Positions 40,061 to 51,862 of a stretch of DNA of 64,000 bases are shown here, in pieces. The notes below the pieces were generated by a model, which did not search any database, had not been told where the DNA came from, and saw nothing but the letters and a program-made list of their open reading frames with translations. The DNA comes from Candidatus Bathyarchaeota archaeon (GTDB lineage Archaea > Thermoproteota > Bathyarchaeia > Bathyarchaeales > Bathycorpusculaceae). Numbering within the stretch: position 1 is the first letter of the stretch; each line of letters begins with the position of its first letter. The translations under genes were made by a program, and so were the position numbers. The stretch is taken from NCBI GenBank assembly GCA_963828195.1, contig CAWHDT010000009.1:117819-181818 (forward strand). The letters are read 5' to 3'.

Positions 40061-40318
40061 GTGGTGCAAATGGCTAAAAAAGTAGATGGTATTCGCGATG
40101 TATTAAAATCGATTAAGCATCAAAAACGGGGAACGCAGATTTTTTGTCCGAGATGTTGTAGCCCAAAGTTGAAGCTGACAAGCAATCTTTCTGTTTGGTT
40201 AACGGGTGCACAGTATTTATGTGAAGAATGCGGTTACGTTGGGACCGTAGTTATGGTGCTTGAAAAAGAAAAAGAAGAAACTGATGCTTCGTCAGAAGAA
40301 AAGAAAGAAGATGTTTAA
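40061..40318 (+). CDS. Small zinc-ribbon protein
   Basis: FCPRC...YLCEECGY. Confidence 0.75.
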   Translation: MVQMAKKVDGIRDVLKSIKHQKRGTQIFCPRCCSPKLKLTSNLSVWLTGAQYLCEECGYVGTVVMVLEKEKEETDASSEEKKEDV

Positions 40319-41256
40319 TCGGGCAACTCAAGATTCAATTGTTTCTTAAGTGTTTTGTATCGGTTGCGCACGGTTACTTCTGTTACGCCTGCGGCTTCAG
40401 CGATGTCTTTCTGCGTTTTTTTCTCGTTGTTCTGCAAGCATGCAATGTAGAGGGCGGCAGCTGCTAACCCCATCGGGTCTTTCCCGGCGGCAGCACGTTT
40501 ACGTCTTGCATCTCTGAGAATTTGGATGGCGGCACCTTGGGTTTTGCCTGAAATGCCAGTTTTCTCTGCAATTTTAGAGACATATGTGAGTGGGTCAGCA
40601 ATAGGCATATGAACATCAAGTTCACGTAGCAGCAGTCGGTAGCATCTCGCCACGTCTTTCTTATCGACGAGGCTGGCTTCAGCAATTTCTCGCAGTGTTC
40701 GTGGTGTTCCGCTTCCACGGCAAGCAGCGTAAAGCGCGGCTGCAGCAATGGCGGCGATTGATCTGCCTCTGACCAGTCCCTTGTCTAGCGCTTTTCGATA
40801 AACAACGGCGGCTTTTTCTTTGATTGGCGGTGGAATGTACACTTTATCGGATAGACGATCAAGTTCTGCCATGGCTTGAGCCAGGTTTCGATCGACGGAT
40901 GAGTGGACTCGGCTGCGTATTTGCCATTTCCTAAGGCGCCACATTTGCAGTCTTGTGGATAGGGGCAGTTTTCTTCCAAACGCATCTCGGTCTACTTGGC
41001 TGATGGCTGTGGATAATCCTTTGTCATGAACGGAATAAGATGTGGGGACTCCAACTCGGCTTCTTGACGCTTTCTCCTCTTGAGTGAAAGCTCGCCATTC
41101 TGGGCCTTTATCCATCATTTGCTCGTACAAAACTAAGCCGCAGTCGCCGCACACGGTTTCTCCCGTGTCATAATCGTGAACTAGGTTTTCGCTACCGCAC
41201 TCCGCGCACTTGTCAGATAACCGCGCCTGTGGTTTAGTTACTTCTTTTTTGCTCAT
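40315..41256 (-). CDS. tfb: Transcription initiation factor IIB
   Basis: Zn ribbon, GPEWRAF, two cyclin repeats and VTEVTVRNRYK. Confidence 0.97.
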   Translation of the reverse strand: MSKKEVTKPQARLSDKCAECGSENLVHDYDTGETVCGDCGLVLYEQMMDKGPEWRAFTQEEKASRSRVGVPTSYSVHDKGLSTAISQVDRDAFGRKLPLSTRLQMWRLRKWQIRSRVHSSVDRNLAQAMAELDRLSDKVYIPPPIKEKAAVVYRKALDKGLVRGRSIAAIAAAALYAACRGSGTPRTLREIAEASLVDKKDVARCYRLLLRELDVHMPIADPLTYVSKIAEKTGISGKTQGAAIQILRDARRKRAAAGKDPMGLAAAALYIACLQNNEKKTQKDIAEAAGVTEVTVRNRYKTLKKQLNLELPD

Positions 41257-41558: not shown

Positions 41559-41634
41559 AGCCCGGTGGTGTAGTGGTCAAGCATAGAGGGCTTTGGACCC
41601 TCCGACGAGAGTTCGAATCTCTCCCGGGCTACCA
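41559..41634 (+). tRNA. tRNA-Gln(TTG)
   Basis: Acceptor stem AGCCCGG/CCGGGCT with A1-U72, anticodon loop CTTTGGA, GTTCGAAT and ACCA. Confidence 0.95.
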
Positions 41635-44402: not shown

Positions 44403-45464
44403 TTGGTAGCTATGGGCCGTTTAAGTAAGCATTACTTGGTCACTTTTTTTTTAATCTTATTAGCATCGTCAATTACGCTTCAGTTTAACGTAGTAAAAGC
44501 AACAACTGCAAAAGAAATTATAGTGCCCGATGATTTCTCCAGTATTCAAAGCGCCATTAATAGTGCAAAAGCAGGCGACACTATTTTTGTAAGGTCTGGA
44601 AATTATAACATTACAACTGGGAATGATAATCAGATGAGTGGCAATAGTCTATTTATAAATAAATCAATCTCGGTGATTGGTCAGGGTTGTGAGAATACAA
44701 TTATCACAACTACTCAAATTGGTCCTTATGATGTGGGAATAGACATTGCTGCAAATAACGTAACCATCTCTGGATTCACAATAGTAGGAAATGCCAATGT
44801 TATCGTTATTGGAGGGTCAGCAAATACAGTTACAAATAATATCATTAATCTCACTAGTTCGAACGGTGGTAATGCAATAGAAGATGACGGCTCAGAAGAC
44901 AAACTTTTCTCAAACATCCTTAACGGAGCAGGATACGGAACGTCTGGTCTTTTTGGTAACGAAACGACTGGAATATTAGTATTAGGCAATATGACAGCAT
45001 CTAATAACATTATTAGAAATTTTGGAGTGGGCTTATCTATTTCGGCTGAATCGCCGCTCGATTACTCCATTCAAATTGTTAACAATACAATTGATAACAA
45101 TGCTGTAGGGATTTTTCTATTCTCAGTTCCAACAGTGCTTTATGAAAATAATATTATGAACCAATCTAACTATAATATTTATACGGAGATAAGCAACGTT
45201 AATGCTACTTACAATTGGTGGGGGACAAACGATAGCCAAACGATAGCTAACTCGCTGACCAAGAGTAATGATGTTACTTTTGCTCCTTTTCTAAAGGCCT
45301 CAAATCCACAAGCGATGCCTATCGCGAGTCCGTCAACACCGCTTGCAAACACATCACCCGGGCCATCAATTCCCGAATTATTTCCAACAGTAGTAGTAAC
45401 TCTTGCAGTTGTACTTTTAATAAGTACATTAACAATTTTTTTAATAAAAAGAAGAAGCCGATAA
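44403..45464 (+). CDS. Secreted right-handed beta-helix (NosD/pectin-lyase-like) protein, provirus cargo
   Basis: IIVPDDFSSIQSAIN.A..GDTIFVRSGNY, Asn-ladder repeats, NATYNWWG, and a PEF-like IPELFP plus TM helix plus KRRSR. Confidence 0.8.
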   Translation: MVAMGRLSKHYLVTFFLILLASSITLQFNVVKATTAKEIIVPDDFSSIQSAINSAKAGDTIFVRSGNYNITTGNDNQMSGNSLFINKSISVIGQGCENTIITTTQIGPYDVGIDIAANNVTISGFTIVGNANVIVIGGSANTVTNNIINLTSSNGGNAIEDDGSEDKLFSNILNGAGYGTSGLFGNETTGILVLGNMTASNNIIRNFGVGLSISAESPLDYSIQIVNNTIDNNAVGIFLFSVPTVLYENNIMNQSNYNIYTEISNVNATYNWWGTNDSQTIANSLTKSNDVTFAPFLKASNPQAMPIASPSTPLANTSPGPSIPELFPTVVVTLAVVLLISTLTIFLIKRRSR

Positions 45465-47134: not shown

Positions 47135-47671
47135 ATGTCAATAGTTATTCCAGCCGCGGAAACCGTAAAGATCAGCGATGTTAAGACTGATGGACAGAAT
47201 CCAAATAAGATGAGCAAAGACCAGCTCGAACGTCTCAAAACTTCAATTAAAAAATGGGGTTTTATCGTTCCAATCATAACCAACAAAGACCTCTTAATCG
47301 CTGACGGAGAACAACGCTACATAGCCGCCAAAGCACTGGGCATGGCTGAAGTCTCAATTATCCGCCTACCCGTAGAAGATGTAGACCGCAGATTACTCAG
47401 GCAGGTTTTAAACAAGCTCAGAGGCAAGCATGACCCTGAACTTGACAGGGCCGAATATGAACGCATCATCGAAGCGGGAAAGGAAGAAGAACTCAATTAT
47501 TTGGTTATGGTTTCCGATGAGAAACTCAAGAATCTTCTGAGCGAAGAAAAAAGCATAACGCTTGCTGCGACTTTTGAGGTTGTACTTGAATGCGAAGATG
47601 AGGTTCACCAACAAGCCATCTTCAACAAACTAACAGGTGAGGGGTACAAGTGCCGTCTTTTGACTTTGTGA
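47135..47671 (+). CDS. ParB/Sulfiredoxin-like domain protein
   Basis: NPNKM...LKTSIKKWGFIVPII....IADGEQR..AA..LG. Confidence 0.85.
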   Translation: MSIVIPAAETVKISDVKTDGQNPNKMSKDQLERLKTSIKKWGFIVPIITNKDLLIADGEQRYIAAKALGMAEVSIIRLPVEDVDRRLLRQVLNKLRGKHDPELDRAEYERIIEAGKEEELNYLVMVSDEKLKNLLSEEKSITLAATFEVVLECEDEVHQQAIFNKLTGEGYKCRLLTL

Positions 47672-48333
47672 GAACCTGGAACAAGCCAAACAGTTTCCGA
47701 GCGCAATCAGTCATCGGCAGCTTTACACTCGTTGATTGCAAGATGGAGAAACACTTCACCGGACAAATTCCCATTGAGGATAACACTTGGCAGATCGGCG
47801 TCATAGTTGGTCGTAGCGGCACTGGTAAAACAAGCATAGCCAAAACTCTCTTCGCCGATAGCTACATCAAAGGCTTTTCCTACACCCATGAATCTATCCT
47901 CGACGATTTTCCAGAAGGACAACAGGTAAACGAGATAACTAAGAACCTGTGCAGCGTAGGTTTTGCTTCACCGCCTGATTGGCTCAAAAACTACGATGCA
48001 CTCAGCCAAGGAGAGAAAATGCGGGTAGACATCGCGAGAGCTCTCAGCCTCGCGCAGCCACAAATCGTATTTGACGAATTCACAAGCGTCGTAGACCGCG
48101 AGATTGCTAAAGTCAGCGCCTACGCCATAAGCAAAGCAGTCCGAAGAACAAACAAGAAATTCATTGCTGTTACATGCCATTATGATGTTATCGATTGGCT
48201 TGATCCCGATTGGGTTTTCTGCACTGACACAATGGAGTTTAGCAGAAAAAAAGATGTCGGCCGCCCGTTGATCTCCAGGTTTATCGGTGCGGCGGTTCCG
48301 TGTGGCAGATGTTTCGGCAGTATCACTATCTAA
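47650..48333 (+). CDS. Soluble ABC-type ATPase
   Basis: Walker A GRSGTGKT, signature LSQGE, Walker B VFDEFTSVVDR and H-loop TCHYD. No permease nearby. Confidence 0.88.
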   Translation: MPSFDFVRTWNKPNSFRAQSVIGSFTLVDCKMEKHFTGQIPIEDNTWQIGVIVGRSGTGKTSIAKTLFADSYIKGFSYTHESILDDFPEGQQVNEITKNLCSVGFASPPDWLKNYDALSQGEKMRVDIARALSLAQPQIVFDEFTSVVDREIAKVSAYAISKAVRRTNKKFIAVTCHYDVIDWLDPDWVFCTDTMEFSRKKDVGRPLISRFIGAAVPCGRCFGSITI

Positions 48334-48734
48334 ACAGTAAGCTAGGCGCCGGAGTCAGATGCTATGCAGCCATGTATAACGAAAAACCCATTGCCTTTAT
48401 CGCTGTAGCACACGTGCGTATGAAAGCAAATTATTATCGGGTTAGCCGTCTTGTGGTTCTACCTGACTATCAAGGAATAGGCGTTGGGAAACGTCTGCTG
48501 AACTTTATCGCGGAGCTCTATACATCCCAAACCAGACTGCCCTTCTATCTAATTACGAGCAACCCGCAGCTGGTACGCGGAGACCTTGGGAACTGGATCA
48601 TTAAACGTGTCGGTCATGGCAGCCACGGCAGAGGCGATACAAGAATAAACCGAGAACTCGTCAGGTCAAACAGCCGCGGTCGCTTAACGGTATCATTAAA
48701 GTATGTGCCTAAGATTCGCAAAATCTGCAGTTGA
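48253..48734 (+). CDS. GNAT-family acetyltransferase (-1 frame continuation of the ATPase)
   Basis: W.MF..YHYL and acetyl-CoA motif RLVVLPDYQGIGVG. The frame is open back to the A7 run (RCRPPVDLQVYRC...). Confidence 0.85.
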
Positions 48735-48735
48735 A

Positions 48736-49263
48736 GTGATTTTATTGGATAAAGATCTGCTTGAAAGACGCCTCTTTGAGCTAAAGCTCGAAGGAGACGG
48801 CTTAACTCTTAAGGAAATTGTTGCAGAAACATCAATCAAATTCTCGTGTCACACCGCGACGGTGTATCGAGAGATGGCTCACAGAGCGTTATGGCAGCCT
48901 CTTCTGCAGGAATTCTCCGAGGCTCTGCTGAAGGCTAAGAACTGTCACGTGCAGCTGTACCGTAAAGCCAGCTTCATGTATAGCCAAGCCAAAAGCGACA
49001 GGGCACGGATCGCAGCTTTGAATCTTATGCGCCAAATCAACATTGACCTTGCGGAGCTTAGCGGCGCAAAACCAGCCGAGCAATCGCAGTCTGAAGAAAT
49101 CAACATCCGATGGGAAGACCCAGAAGTATGCAAAAAACAATACGCATCAGATACAAACCCCATCCAGGACAATGCCAATTCCACTACTGTACCGCAAGGT
49201 TCCGAGTGCTCAACTGCGGGCGACGCTGGGGCAAAACCGTCGCGGGCGCCAATGAATTCATAA
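48736..49263 (+). CDS. Putative terminase small subunit
   Basis: HTH-like N-terminus and helical body, located directly before and overlapping the terminase large subunit gene. Confidence 0.6.
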   Translation: MILLDKDLLERRLFELKLEGDGLTLKEIVAETSIKFSCHTATVYREMAHRALWQPLLQEFSEALLKAKNCHVQLYRKASFMYSQAKSDRARIAALNLMRQINIDLAELSGAKPAEQSQSEEINIRWEDPEVCKKQYASDTNPIQDNANSTTVPQGSECSTAGDAGAKPSRAPMNS

Positions 49264-50384
49264 GGCAAATGTGGCAGCAAGGCGAAGGCAAAGAAAAATT
49301 AGGAATAGTCGGCTTCGCGGTTGCACCAACTTATTGGCATACCCAGCGGCAATGGAGCGAATTCTTCAACTATTGCCCAGCTGAATTAATCGAGGAAATC
49401 CACCGAGCCGACCGCCATGTGATATTTTCGGGCAATCGGCATGTTTGGTTTAAGAGCGCAGACAACCCCGATTCACTTCGTAGCCAAGGCGTAAAAGTTC
49501 TTTGGGTTGACGAAGGCGCCCAAATTGCTGAGGAAGCCTGGACCTTAGCTCTTAGGCCTGCATTGATGGATGAGAAAGGCATCGCCTTCTTCACTGGCAC
49601 ACCCAGAGGGCACAACTGGTATTTCCAGCTTTGGACAAGAGGGCAAGACCCTAAACAGACAGATTACAAAAGCTGGAGCTTCCCAAGTGCAAGCAACCCG
49701 TACTTGGATCCAGCCGAAATTGCCTCATTTGCTCGGGATATGCCTGAGTTGGCTTATCGTCAAGAGGTCTTGGCACAGTTCTTAGAAGATGTCGGCAGCG
49801 TATTCCGAGGAGTGGACCGCATTGTTGAAGGCGGCTTTGAGCTTCCTCAGCCAAAATAAGAAATATGTCATGGGCGCCGACCTTGCAAAGCTCGAGGATT
49901 TCACTGTTCTAATTGTCTTGGATATTGATGGCCACTTGGTGCGCCTTTGACAGATTCAACGAGTTGGATTGGGTATTTCAAAGAAAACGCATCGTTCAAC
50001 TATCCCAGAACTATGATGCCCGTTTGCTAATTGACAGCACCGGAGTTGGCGACCCAATCGAAGACGAACTCTGCCGAGAGAAAGGTGCATGTTGACGGCT
50101 ACAAATTCACCAACGCCACAAAAAAAGACCTCATCGAAAACCTCAGCATAATGATTGAAAACCACCAGCTCACAATCCCGCCGATTCCAGTTTTGATTAA
50201 CGAGCTCAAGCTGTACGGGTACAAGACTACCCGAAGCGGCAACGTGCAGTATGGAGCACCCGAAGGCTACCATGACGACGCCGTTATCGCTCTCGCATTA
50301 GCCGCTTGGCAACTAAAACGCTCACCCTCGCCATCGTCAGGCGTTGGAATTGCGTTCCCGAACCGACATTATGGATGTACTTAG
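49128..50384 (+). CDS. terL: Terminase large subunit (three single-base frameshifts)
   Basis: PHPGQ, GRRWGKT, VDEGA and GTP. Nuclease motifs MGADLA, IDSTGVGD and HDDAVIALALA. Split near 49855, 49932 and 50080. Confidence 0.92.
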
Positions 50385-50409
50385 TAAATGGTAAACTTTA
50401 GATCCGCTT

Positions 50410-51862
50410 TTGGTCAGGTTGCAAGCAAAATACTTCCTGCCCCAACGAACTGATTCGTTGCCAAACCCGATGCGAAATGTGGCAGAGGATACGGCTAAGC
50501 AGCAAATCGAGCAAGAGATCCCGTTTAGGTCCAGTCGAGATGCTGTTCTGCAAGAATACCTCAGCAGGTACACTCTGAAAAGTGCTGGAATAGGCTTTGT
50601 TACTCCGCCTTACAGCAGCCTTTATGATAGAATTTGGGGAATCACGCCAGTTGATGATCTGCCGAAACTGCAAGCCCTCTACGAGTACAATCCGTATATT
50701 GCAGCCTCAGTTGATGTTCGCGTTAACTTGACGGTTAGCAATTGGCTTGAGCTAGAAGGCGGCAACTCCACATTCAACGATTATCTGAGCGAGTGGCTGG
50801 ATTCCCATAACGTTCCCTCTGTCGCCCGAATCCAAGAAAATAATGCTTTGGTTAACGGCTTTAGCGTCACCGAGCTTTGCCGAGATGAAGATAATCAACG
50901 GGTTGAATGGCTAAAGCCTCTGGATCCACTTTATGTCCGGATTCGCCGAGACGCTTACATGAACATTTTCGGCTACATTCAACTTGCTTTCTGTGCCTCC
51001 GGCAATTTTTGAGCCTCAAGACATACTGCGTACACTTCACAATCAAGGTTCAGGTAGGTACAACAGCGCCTACGGCGTAAGCCTGCTAAGAAGCACCCTG
51101 CTGATTCAGGCTCTTACAGACGATTTCCAGCATGACATGGCAACCATAATGAAAATTTACACCAAACCCATCCTTGCCTATCAATGCGGCACAGAAAAGG
51201 CTGAGTGGTCGGACACTAAGCTGCAGGCATTTATCGATGGCATGGCTGAACGCCAACAAGGAACCGACCTCGCATTCAAACACGACGTCAACCCCATACC
51301 TATCGACAGCATGACTCGCGGCTTACGGGTTGAATGGTGGCTAAACTATCTGCTAACTCAACGTAACGCACAGTTAGGCGTTCCCAAGTTGTTTTTAGGA
51401 GAAATTGAAAACGCAAACAGATCAACCGCTGACATAGTTATGCAGGAATTTGTCACTCGCCTTCGCATGCGCCAGGAACACATAAAGTACACTTACGAAA
51501 CTGAATTGTTCCCAGCTATCCTGCAAGGCGACTTTCCAGGATCGTTCATTACTTCGGATAAGATTCCAAAGATAAAGTGGCGACCGATCTGGGAGCCTGC
51601 AGCAGACGTTTTGGTTGACCAACAAATTGCACTCTTCCAAGCAGGCCTAACCGGAGATCTAGAAGCCCGAGCAAAACTTGGTTTGCCTGAAGAAGTCTGG
51701 GGGAACCTGGCAACGATGCGTCAAAGTTACAACCAAGCAATGCCCTCCGACGCCGTCAGCAAAAGCGATGCATCTCAGCCTTCTCCTGAACTAAGGGCTT
51801 CTCAAAGACAGCTAAGCATGAACGGGAAAAGCTATGTTATCTCAGAAATTCCAAGACAATGA
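50410..51862 (+). CDS. Portal protein (frameshift near 50985)
   Basis: Follows terL. LKPLDPLYVRI, AYGVSLL, LGVPKLFLG...NRSTA and EARAKLGL. Confidence 0.85.

What the first reader, a model, noticed from the sequence alone, without database searches (positions are those of the whole stretch)
47135..48734. ParB-like / ABC ATPase / GNAT cassette directly upstream of the terminase: candidate DNA hypermodification system in an archaeal virus
Seen: three overlapping genes (ParB/Srx domain, permease-less ABC ATPase, GNAT with HYL and RLVVLPDYQGIG motifs) run straight into the terminase genes. Known: phage Mu Mom is a GNAT-fold DNA-modifying enzyme, and ParB-like proteins often accompany DNA-modification genes next to phage terminases. 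Inference: this is a packaging-linked base-acylation (anti-restriction) module. I know of no characterised example in archaeal viruses, and the chemistry of the ATPase-coupled type is unknown to me.
Basis: partly seen in the sequence, partly recalled or inferred. Interest (0 to 1): 0.8.

Follow-up and report, generated by a model that had tools for sequence, protein, structure and literature searches.

The report
ParB plus frameshifted ABC-ATPase–GNAT virus module
An archaeal provirus carries, just ahead of its DNA-packaging genes, a ParB-like protein and an ATPase–acetyltransferase that seems to be made by a built-in reading-frame slip; the same untested module is common in bacterial phages and probably marks viral DNA chemically.

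Summary
The three ORFs are real, at the stated coordinates, with the stated domains and motifs. They are better read as two genes. The ATPase and GNAT are one gene joined by a -1 frameshift at A AAA AAA G (48246-48253). That site is present in all 79 archaeal copies aligned. Single-ORF relatives match frame 0 up to the A-run and frame -1 after it.

The module is not specific to archaeal viruses:
- PHROG 11143 covers both halves.
- 80 bacterial phage records hold it.
- 560 protein clusters match at E<=1e-30.
- Some relatives fuse ParB, ATPase and GNAT in one chain.

A 2021 paper cites a 2013 prediction that this ABC-ATPase/GNAT family acylates a DNA base. It was still uncharacterised then.

- No similarity to Mom.
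- The nearest GNAT folds are protein N-acetyltransferases.
- Terminase lies within 3 kb in only 24 of 80 archaeal loci.
- The window's own terminase and portal genes are frameshifted.

New here are the Bathyarchaeia spread and the conserved frameshift.

The parts
47135..47671 (+). ParB-like protein (178 aa). It has an N-terminal ParB/Srx NTP-binding fold with the GxxR motif (D57 G58 R61), a helical linker and a C-terminal mini-domain of about 30 aa (residues 147-178, nt 47573-47668).
   Evidence: Pfam ParB_N 3e-8. phrog_498 and phrog_620. PADLOC MTase_II N-terminus. Invariant residues in 61 archaeal copies. The whole length aligns to the N-termini of the ParB-ATPase-GNAT fusion proteins P0155 and P0211. 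The mini-domain matches stand-alone gp28 of phage phiE255 and phrog_28816.
47650..48333 (+). Frame-0 reading of the ATPase-GNAT gene. It gives an ABC-type ATPase of 227 aa that ends in a 26-aa tail after the slip site. This is the product made when no frameshift occurs.
   Evidence: Pfam ABC_tran. phrog_11143 positions 11-203 of 357, 2.6e-58. Walker A, signature, Walker B-Glu and H-loop residues are invariant in 79 relatives. A length of 221-227 aa is kept in most of the 120 listed homologues.
48246..48252 (+). Slippery heptamer A AAA AAA (frame-0 codons AGA AAA AAA, then GAT). This is the proposed -1 frameshift site. The -1 frame has a TAG at 48240-48242, directly before it.
   Evidence: AAAAAAAG is present in 74 of 79 archaeal copies. 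The other 5 have a run of 9 A. Codon view. Single-ORF relatives switch frame exactly here. P0122 reads ...ARKK/RVMPPVELKVYRCG... in one ORF.
48260..48293 (+). G+C-rich hairpin predicted 7 nt after the heptamer. It is a possible frameshift stimulator.
   Evidence: MFE is -16.7 kcal/mol in the window (z -1.06) and -19.9 in L010 (z -3.2). 81% of cells pair, but the arms are nearly invariant, so there is no covariation. RNAalifold found no consensus. The hairpin is absent in the clade with 9 A. It is unproven.
48252..48734 (+). Frame -1 continuation: linker, GNAT strand beta1 (QVYRC, 48276-48290) and the rest of the GNAT domain. With residues 1-201 of the ATPase it gives a fusion protein of about 361 aa.
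   Evidence: phrog_11143 positions 214-354. Acetyltransf_1. tblastn with phage gp29 and gp2 aligns frame -1 from RCRPPVDLQVYRCG onward. The AlphaFold model of P0122 (pLDDT 92.6) places a strand at KVYRC, upstream of any start codon. Only 5 of 79 loci have a start codon upstream of that strand. H9, Y10, R50, P55, Q58 and G59 are invariant.
48703..49263 (+). 186-aa ORF between the module and the large terminase. By its position it may be a small-terminase candidate. Its function is unverified.
   Evidence: No Pfam, PHROG, NCBIfam or PADLOC hit. Relatives lie either after or before the module in other loci. The atlas search gave only viral or bacterial hypothetical clusters.
49110..50384 (+). Large terminase subunit, broken into four frame segments in the window.
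   Evidence: Terminase_6N, phrog_2 and Terminase_6C. Frame view. It is intact in one frame in L002, L003, L006 and others. There are three 1-nt insertions relative to L006.
50410..51862 (+). Portal protein, broken into two frame segments in the window.
   Evidence: phrog_9232. It lies in a single frame in L006. There are 1-nt insertions at 50446 and 50986 relative to L006.

Best explanation
This is a two-gene viral module.

Gene 1 encodes a short ParB-like NTP-binding protein.

Gene 2 encodes an ABC-type ATPase. At the run A AAA AAA G, a share of ribosomes slips back one base (or the polymerase slips on the A-run). Those ribosomes continue into a GNAT acyltransferase domain. The gene therefore yields an ATPase-only protein (227 aa) and an ATPase-GNAT fusion (about 361 aa).

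The gene structure and the ParB partnership are shown here by comparison.

The function is inferred. The ParB protein brings or activates the ATP-driven ABC dimer on double-stranded viral DNA, probably through its C-terminal mini-domain. The GNAT domain then transfers an acyl group from an acyl-CoA, or less likely from an aminoacyl-tRNA, to a nucleobase late in infection, before packaging. This would protect the packaged genome from host nucleases.

The module belongs to a large, experimentally untouched family shared by bacterial phages and Bathyarchaeia proviruses. That family was already predicted in print to acylate DNA.
For: Gene structure:
- phrog_11143 spans both ORFs.
- The heptamer is present in 79 of 79 copies.
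- Fused phage proteins align to frame 0 before the A-run and to frame -1 after it.
- A natural one-ORF variant, P0122, has exactly the predicted junction.
- GNAT strand beta1 is encoded before any start codon.
- Variation sits at frame-0 third positions upstream of the site (1.31 against 0.46 and 0.47). It sits at frame -1 third positions downstream (1.52).
- RefSeq leaves the GNAT part of phiNIH1.1 unannotated.

Partnership:
- ParB lies directly upstream in nearly all 80 archaeal loci.
- ParB is upstream in 8 of 10 phage loci.
- ParB-ATPase-GNAT single chains exist: P0155, P0211, P0167.

Function, by inference:
- The ParB subfamily is the one fused to DNA methyltransferases.
- Phage ParB-like proteins activate T-dioxygenases on dsDNA (PMC13229309).
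- In Mu-like phiE255 and a Porphyromonas phage the gene sits after the tail genes at the genome end. Mom sits in that position in Mu.
- An ASCH gene follows in two Streptococcus phages.
- ATPase identity between archaeal and Firmicutes-phage copies is 48-54%. This argues for a substrate common to both domains.
- The full model also matches TmcA and Kre33, which are P-loop ATPase plus GNAT cytidine acetyltransferases, over two domains (E 2e-7, TMq 0.30).
- All ATPase and acyl-CoA-loop residues are invariant.
- The published prediction (PMC7824862).
Against: - No experiment bears on the family.
- There is no sequence relation to Mom and no TmcA-type Pfam domain.
- The GNAT-only model is nearest to RimI, Naa50, Naa10 and Ard1 and small-molecule GNATs (Z 12-13, tied; Foldseek).
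- The ATPase domain is nearest to transporter-type nucleotide-binding domains (HlyB, MsbA, MalK, SufC), not to DNA-binding ABC proteins.
- Terminase is within 3 kb in only 24 of 80 archaeal loci and within 8 kb in 29 of 80.
- The abstract of PMC13219725 notes that acyl groups on adenine N6 are unstable.
- The hairpin has no covariation support.
- Slippage by ribosome or by polymerase cannot be told apart. No RNA or protein data cover the site.
Confidence: 0.42

Rival explanations
1. The module acetylates a protein, not DNA. ParB and the ABC ATPase bring the GNAT to a DNA-bound or packaging-related protein, such as a host chromatin or nucleoid protein, terminase, portal or ParB itself. This would clear or regulate DNA before packaging, or redirect host machinery.
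For: The nearest folds of the GNAT are protein N-terminal acetyltransferases: RimI Z 13.0, Naa50 12.5, NatA 12.2, Ard1 12.0. The best NCBIfam hit is rimI, 9e-6, far below its cut-off. Phage GNATs that acetylate host proteins are known (the Rac example in PMC7824862).
Against: The Z rows are tied with small-molecule GNATs, and fold does not fix the substrate. The module keeps 48-54% ATPase identity between archaeal and Firmicutes-phage copies. Those hosts' chromatin and packaging proteins differ, so a shared protein target is hard to name. The ParB subfamily is the one linked to DNA methyltransferases.
Confidence: 0.2
2. The module acetylates RNA (tRNA or rRNA) as TmcA and NAT10 do. This would tune translation of late viral genes or blunt RNA-targeting defences.
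For: The architecture is a P-loop ATPase plus GNAT in one chain. There are two-domain Foldseek matches to TmcA (2zpa_A) and Kre33 (5jpq_i), E about 2e-7. Universal RNA targets would fit the spread across both domains.
Against: The ATPase is ABC-type, not RecD-like. No TmcA Pfam domains and no tRNA-binding domain are present. TMq is only 0.30. The obligatory ParB partner and the position beside packaging genes point to DNA.
Confidence: 0.1
3. The module has no modifying role. It is a packaging, partition or anti-defence accessory. Examples are a ParB-ATPase clamp that marks the pac site or holds the genome, or a decoy or toxin against host immunity. In that case the GNAT would bind a ligand rather than catalyse.
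For: The module sits beside small ORFs that also travel with terminases (o186 family). In about two thirds of archaeal loci it lies in small islands with recombinase-like genes and next to type I R-M genes. PADLOC gave a weak hit of the ATPase to mad3, 1.4e-10.
Against: The GNAT acyl-CoA loop (R..VVLPDYQG.G) and the HY pair are invariant over 79-83 distant relatives. That fits catalysis. The PADLOC hit covers only the generic ABC signature region.
Confidence: 0.12
4. On gene structure only: there is no frameshift. ATPase and GNAT are two overlapping genes translated separately, as the first reader read them.
For: A GTG at 48300 and an ATG at 48309 exist in the window. ATG at the second of these places is found in 59 of 79 loci. 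Most listed homologues are annotated as 227-aa proteins.
Against: - Frame -1 is conserved as protein for 16 codons upstream of 48300. It is homologous there to single-ORF relatives.
- That stretch holds GNAT strand beta1.
- Only 33 of 79 loci have any start codon between the A-run and the conserved Trp, and 5 of 79 have one before beta1.
- The heptamer never varies, though the flanking codons do.
Confidence: 0.1

Closest known systems
Phage ABC-ATPase/GNAT system predicted to acylate a DNA base (Iyer, Zhang, Burroughs & Aravind 2013, as cited in Iyer et al. 2021, PMC7824862; PHROG 11143)
   Same: The two-domain protein is the same. phrog_11143 matches both halves. The paper's example phage, Tenacibaculum pT24, is among my hits (H84). 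The setting is viral and the family is uncharacterised.
   Different: The host is an archaeon (Bathyarchaeia). The gene is split by a conserved -1 frameshift. I could not read the 2013 paper. I therefore cannot say whether it noted ParB, terminase linkage, archaeal members or the frameshift.
Mom of phage Mu (a GNAT-fold enzyme that puts glycine from Gly-tRNA on adenine N6 of dsDNA; PMC13219725, abstract seen)
   Same: Both have a GNAT fold, are viral late genes, and take the same genome-end position in Mu-like relatives. The supposed anti-restriction role is also shared.
   Different: No sequence relation was found. Mom has no ATPase and no ParB partner. The donor and target of the present family are unknown.
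TmcA / NAT10 (Kre33), ATP-dependent cytidine N4-acetyltransferases of RNA
   Same: Both have a P-loop ATPase and a GNAT in one chain. Two-domain structural matches were found.
   Different: The ATPase here is ABC-type, not RecD-like. There is no DUF1726 or tRNA-binding domain. TMq is low, 0.30. The partner here is a DNA-clamp-type ParB.
ParB-dependent phage thymine dioxygenases (PMC13229309)
   Same: A short phage ParB-like protein without an obvious DNA-binding domain is paired with a DNA base-modifying enzyme, often near terminases.
   Different: The enzyme partner there is a dioxygenase and here is an ATPase-GNAT. No activity is shown here.
Programmed -1 frameshift genes: Saccharolobus solfataricus fucA1 (A AAA AAT; PMC8211752, passages seen) and E. 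coli dnaX (recalled)
   Same: There is an A-rich X XXY YYZ heptamer, an ORF overlap of tens of bases, and a possible downstream hairpin. As in dnaX, two products come from one gene.
   Different: Support here is comparative only, from 79 copies and single-ORF relatives. No protein or RNA evidence exists. The setting is viral.

Membership tests
Phage ABC-ATPase/GNAT family (PHROG 11143) | One profile covers the ATPase and the GNAT halves | tested here: met
   ORF2 matches positions 11-203 (2.6e-58). ORF3 matches positions 214-354 (2.1e-25) of the 357-position profile.
Phage ABC-ATPase/GNAT family (PHROG 11143) | Intact ABC motifs and GNAT acyl-CoA loop | tested here: met
   Walker A (S38 G39 G41 K42), signature (L100 S101 G103), D124 E125, H159, H208 Y209, R249 P254 Q257 G258 are invariant in 79 sequences. 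The window has the same residues.
Phage ABC-ATPase/GNAT family (PHROG 11143) | Acyl transfer to a DNA base | not testable with these tools
   This is only a published prediction. No assay exists.
Mom family | Sequence relation to Mu Mom | tested here: not met
   hhalign of the 79-row profile against Mu Mom gave probability 0.5%, E 0.13, and the match lay in the ATPase part. No Mom-named PHROG was among the hits.
Mom family | Structural likeness beyond the common GNAT fold | tested here: inconclusive
   No row naming Mom appears in the top 50. I did not check whether a Mom chain is in the libraries.
TmcA / NAT10 | RecD-like helicase ATPase, TmcA-type GNAT and tRNA-binding domain | tested here: not met
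   Pfam gives ABC_tran and Acetyltransf_1/7/10 only. The two-domain fold match has TMq 0.30.
Canonical partition ParB | ParB_N fold with GxxR motif | tested here: met
   ParB_N 3e-8. D57, G58 and R61 are invariant.
Canonical partition ParB | Full ParB architecture (HTH and dimerisation domain; TIGR00180 above cut-off) | tested here: not met
   TIGR00180 scores 36.3 bits against a cut-off of 58.45. The protein has only 178 aa.
ABC transporter | Membrane permease partner | tested here: not met
   No permease family was found in the 20 neighbouring ORFs scanned. In relatives the partner domains are GNAT and ParB.
Programmed -1 frameshift genes | X XXY YYZ heptamer in frame 0 at the point where homology changes frame | tested here: met
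   A AAA AAA at 48246-48252. It is present in 79 of 79 copies. The frame switch is mapped.
Programmed -1 frameshift genes | Stimulatory RNA structure 5-9 nt downstream | tested here: inconclusive
   A hairpin is predicted. There is no covariation and no RNAalifold consensus.
Programmed -1 frameshift genes | Two protein products observed | not testable with these tools
   No proteomic data exist. RNA contigs do not cover the site.

The most novel reading that the evidence does not exclude
ParB / ABC-ATPase-GNAT is a third, ATP-driven kind of enzymatic DNA base acylation. It would be distinct from Mom and be shared by viruses of Bacteria and Archaea.

In the Bathyarchaeia and Firmicutes-phage branch, the catalytic subunit would be dosed by a conserved programmed -1 frameshift. 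ABC dimers would then carry a set ratio of GNAT-bearing and GNAT-less subunits.

That would give a new modified base. It would also give the second, and by far the best-sampled, case of -1 frameshifting in Archaea.
Probability: 0.25. Interest if true: 0.85.

Novelty: new variant of a known kind. Interest (0 to 1): 0.6.

Why it matters
If the family does acylate DNA, it is a widespread and unexplored route of viral genome protection. It occurs in phages of lactic acid bacteria, streptococci, actinobacteria, Bacteroidota, spirochaetes and soil archaea. It would add a new base and a new ParB-dependent enzyme to the toolbox.

Whatever the function, the frameshift matters for annotation. The GNAT half is missed or mis-started in public records. 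The ATPase is widely mislabelled as a transporter subunit.

A 2021 review counts a single reported case of -1 frameshifting in Archaea (PMC8211752). This gene offers 79 natural replicates to test a second.

Tried and rejected
- **RNA structure.** RNAalifold on 79 copies of the slip region gave no consensus. My hand-drawn stem pairs in 81% of cells, but its arms are invariant, so it is unproven.
- **Complex prediction.** Complex prediction of ParB with ATPase-GNAT gave no verdict (score 0.00). This is neither for nor against binding.
- **Atlas search.** The 186-aa ORF matched only hypothetical clusters.
- **PDB sequence search with P0122.** It matched only the generic ABC signature region.
- **Reads.**
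  - All four runs are held as contigs.
  - No RNA contig covers the A-run. The RNA runs cover only 8 of 30 bins.
  - So expression and slippage could not be tested.
  - Absence of an indel row at the A-run in DNA runs X1 and X2 is only weak support.
  - Whether the window's six 1-nt insertions in terminase and portal are real stays open. Contigs without them are mostly from 90-95% relatives.
- **Literature.**
  - 'COG2401' gave 0 papers. That COG number is my recollection.
  - The Bathyarchaeia virus preprint has no mention of ParB, ABC, GNAT or acetyltransferase. PMC11697101 mentions only a provirus.
  - Searches for a described frameshift in this gene found nothing relevant.
  - Searches found no experimental study of the family.
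  - Iyer 2013 and Krishnan 2020 are not held. What they say beyond the citing sentence in PMC7824862 is unknown to me.
  - I did not ask for supplements. Dataset S10 of PMC13229309 and the supplements of PMC7824862 may list this family.
- **Rejected reading: ABC transporter.** There is no permease, and the partners are GNAT and ParB.
- **Rejected reading: pseudogene or sequencing error at the A-run.** The same 7 A are found in 74 of 79 assemblies from many studies, and the frame-0 stop is at a fixed place.
Full report
**What is there.**

The + strand holds ORFs 47135-47671 (178 aa), 47650-48333 (227 aa) and 48300-48734 (144 aa). They are followed by 48703-49263 (186 aa) and a large-terminase ORF from 49110. 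Pfam gives ParB_N (3e-8), ABC_tran (1.5e-8), Acetyltransf_1 (6e-9) and Terminase_6N (1.4e-15). PHROGs adds a portal at 50984-51862. Further downstream lie a weak capsid match and a tape-measure-like protein.

The host is an archaeon. A TFIIB gene lies at 40315-41256, and the nearest relatives are Bathyarchaeia MAGs.

**The provirus looks damaged.**

- The large terminase runs through four frame segments and the portal through two.
- In relatives both genes are in a single frame. L006 is one example, with 97-99% protein identity.
- Against L006 the window has six 1-nt insertions, at 49851, 49938, 50080, 50386, 50446 and 50986.
- Contigs of two soil DNA runs and one contig from an RNA library lack several of these insertions. 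Most of those contigs come from 90-95% relatives.
- So assembly error and real decay cannot be separated.
- The ParB/ATPase/GNAT stretch shows no such breaks. Each part aligns in one piece to the relatives.

**ATPase and GNAT are one gene read in two frames.**

1. PHROG 11143 has 357 positions and no known function. It matches the ATPase ORF at positions 11-203 and the GNAT ORF at positions 214-354.
2. In 74 of the 80 related loci the GNAT match starts 31 nt before the end of the ATPase match, in frame -1.
3. All 79 copies that could be aligned carry an A-run at the same codon. 74 have AAAAAAAG and 5 have nine A. The flanking codons vary. In most loci frame -1 opens only just before the run.
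4. Single-ORF proteins of Burkholderia phage phiE255 (gp29, 376 aa) and Gordonia phage NHagos (gp2, 399 aa) align to frame 0 up to the A-run. From RCRPPVDLQVYRCG onward they align to frame -1.
5. P0122 is a natural one-ORF protein of the archaeal clade. It reads ...EFARKK RVMPPVELKVYRCG..., exactly the predicted junction.
6. The AlphaFold model of P0122 (pLDDT 92.6, pTM 0.88) has a strand at KVYRC. That is upstream of the first possible start of the 'GNAT ORF'.
7. Only 33 of 79 loci have any ATG, GTG or TTG between the A-run and the conserved Trp. Only 5 have one before that strand.
8. Variation sits at frame-0 third positions before the site (1.31 against 0.46 and 0.47). It sits at frame -1 third positions after the ATPase stop (1.52). 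In the overlap all positions are quiet (0.34, 0.64, 0.65). This suggests that both readings, or an RNA structure, are constrained there.

A G+C-rich hairpin is predicted 7 nt after the run, at -16.7 to -19.9 kcal/mol. It has no covariation support. It is missing in the clade with nine A.

The expected products are a 227-aa ATPase and a fusion of about 361 aa. I cannot tell ribosomal slippage from polymerase slippage.

The same -1 split, with other runs at the junction, occurs in Oenococcus, Lactococcus and Streptococcus phages. Six other phage loci have one ORF. RefSeq leaves the GNAT part of phiNIH1.1 unannotated. A 2021 review states that only one case of -1 frameshifting has been reported in Archaea (passages of PMC8211752).

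**ParB belongs to the unit.**

- ParB lies directly upstream, overlapping the ATPase start, in nearly all 80 loci.
- Of 10 phage loci inspected, 8 have a ParB-like gene directly upstream. Six were found by tblastn and two by annotation.
- Among the 150 best of 3216 relatives, about eleven are 558-623 aa long with the match starting near residue 240-280.
- Three of these were examined: P0155, P0211 and P0167.
  - P0155 aligns over its N-terminus to the whole window ParB, E 7e-13.
  - P0211 does the same, E 9e-10.
  - P0167 has the same layout by eye.
- The ParB keeps the GxxR motif (D57, G58 and R61 are invariant).
- It also ends in a mini-domain of about 30 aa. In phiE255 that mini-domain stands alone as gp28, just before the fused gene (phrog_28816). 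I take it to be the adaptor. This is an inference.
- The complex prediction gave no verdict.

**Spread.**

- The ATPase has 7887 scored homologues in the clustered protein collection. The best 120 are at 70-100% identity, and most are 221-227 aa long.
- 191 stretches in species-representative genomes encode a relative. Of the 80 kept, 76 are labelled Bathyarchaeota or Bathyarchaeia. Two are labelled uncultured archaeon. Two are short contigs binned as Anaerolineaceae.
- Up to five loci come from one MAG.
- The window's own genome has one intact copy and one broken copy.
- 80 phage records hold the ATPase and 56 hold the GNAT. Their hosts are spread over Firmicutes, Actinobacteria, Bacteroidota, Proteobacteria and spirochaetes.
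- 560 clusters at 50% identity match at E<=1e-30.

**Linkage to packaging.**

In the archaeal loci a large terminase of one of three subfamilies lies within 3 kb downstream in 24 of 80. Among the 66 loci with at least 3 kb of room, the figure is 21. It lies within 8 kb in 29 of 80.

The other loci have small conserved ORFs of unknown family in front of the module. These include relatives of the 186-aa ORF. There is often a recombinase-like gene, and host-like genes follow, including type I restriction-modification genes.

In phages:
- Terminase follows within 3.5 kb in 5 of 10 loci: 315.4, P335, NHagos, Pmp13 and LE3.
- In two Mu-like or Mu-positioned cases (phiE255 and a Porphyromonas phage) the gene follows the tail genes at the genome end. 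A formyl-transferase gene is next to it and there is no full ParB.
- Mom holds that position in Mu.

**What it does.**

Nothing is known by experiment. A passage of Iyer et al. [quoted passage not shown] It cites their 2013 paper and names Tenacibaculum phage pT24, which is my hit H84. I could not read the 2013 paper.

- The ParB partner is of the type found on DNA methyltransferases.
- Phage ParB-like proteins are shown to activate thymine dioxygenases on dsDNA (PMC13229309: abstract, sections 12-13).
- The position is Mom-like in Mu-like phages.
- An ASCH gene follows in two Streptococcus phages.
- Conservation across the two domains is high.

Against this:
- There is no relation to Mom.
- No TmcA-type domains are present.
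- The nearest folds of the GNAT are RimI, Naa50, Naa10 and Ard1 and small-molecule GNATs, Z 12-13, all tied.
- The ATPase is nearest to transporter-type domains.
- The full model also matches TmcA and Kre33 over two domains, but weakly (E 2e-7, TMq 0.30).

My odds are:

| Reading | Odds |
|---|---|
| DNA base acylation | about 0.4 |
| Protein acetylation | 0.2 |
| RNA acetylation | 0.1 |
| Non-modifying accessory | about 0.1 |
| Unknown | the rest |

**Verdict.**

- The conserved -1 frameshift.
- The ParB fusions and the mini-domain.
- The large Bathyarchaeia expansion.
- The terminase-less islands.

Noticed in passing
window 49110-51862: Large terminase and portal carry six single-base insertions relative to the 94%-identical locus L006 (49851, 49938, 50080, 50386, 50446, 50986). 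Short-read contigs from two soil runs and one RNA-library contig lack several of them. This is either assembly error or a decaying provirus.
   Followed up: partly
L010, L013, L015, L034, L036, L046, L048, L062, L065, L069 and others (about 50 of 80 loci): The ParB/ATPase-GNAT pair occurs without any terminase within 8 kb. It sits behind small conserved ORFs of unknown family and often a tyrosine-recombinase-like gene. Host-like genes follow, including type I restriction-modification genes. These may be small integrated, satellite-like elements.
   Followed up: partly
window 47573-47668; L083:3804-3968: The last 30 or so residues of the ParB protein form a conserved mini-domain (E148, C153, E156, Q159, L176 and L178 invariant). 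In Burkholderia phage phiE255 it exists as a separate 54-aa protein, gp28, just before the fused ATPase-GNAT.
   Followed up: partly
L083:5083-5697; L089:4601-5074: A short formyl-transferase gene directly follows the fused ATPase-GNAT in phiE255 and in a Porphyromonas phage. Both loci lack a full ParB. This hints at a two-enzyme variant of the pathway.
   Followed up: no
L081:5131-5508; L090:2631-3008: An ASCH-domain gene follows the module in Streptococcus phages 315.4 and phiNIH1.1. By recollection, ASCH proteins bind or hydrolyse N4-acylated cytosine. I did not check this.
   Followed up: no
P0178 (715 aa): One homologue of the ATPase-GNAT carries an intein (Hint plus LAGLIDADG domains) inside the ATPase part.
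   Followed up: no
G000:C6:57202-57907: The window's genome holds a second, broken copy of the ATPase. It has 48-54% identity, a stop inside and two frames.
   Followed up: no
window 41559-41634 and 40315-41256: A tRNA-Gln gene and a TFIIB gene lie just upstream of the virus-like block. The tRNA could be the integration site. Provirus ends were not mapped.
   Followed up: no
window 44403-45464 and cluster c7 in 22 ORFs of the loci: A 353-aa protein with a signal-like N-terminus and a C-terminal hydrophobic stretch has no family hit. Relatives recur at varying places and strands in the related loci.
   Followed up: no
window 49939-50164, 51057-51307, 51652-51807: Contigs from a peat metatranscriptome library cover parts of the terminase and portal genes at 93-99% likeness. 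DNA carry-over cannot be excluded, so expression is not shown.
   Followed up: no
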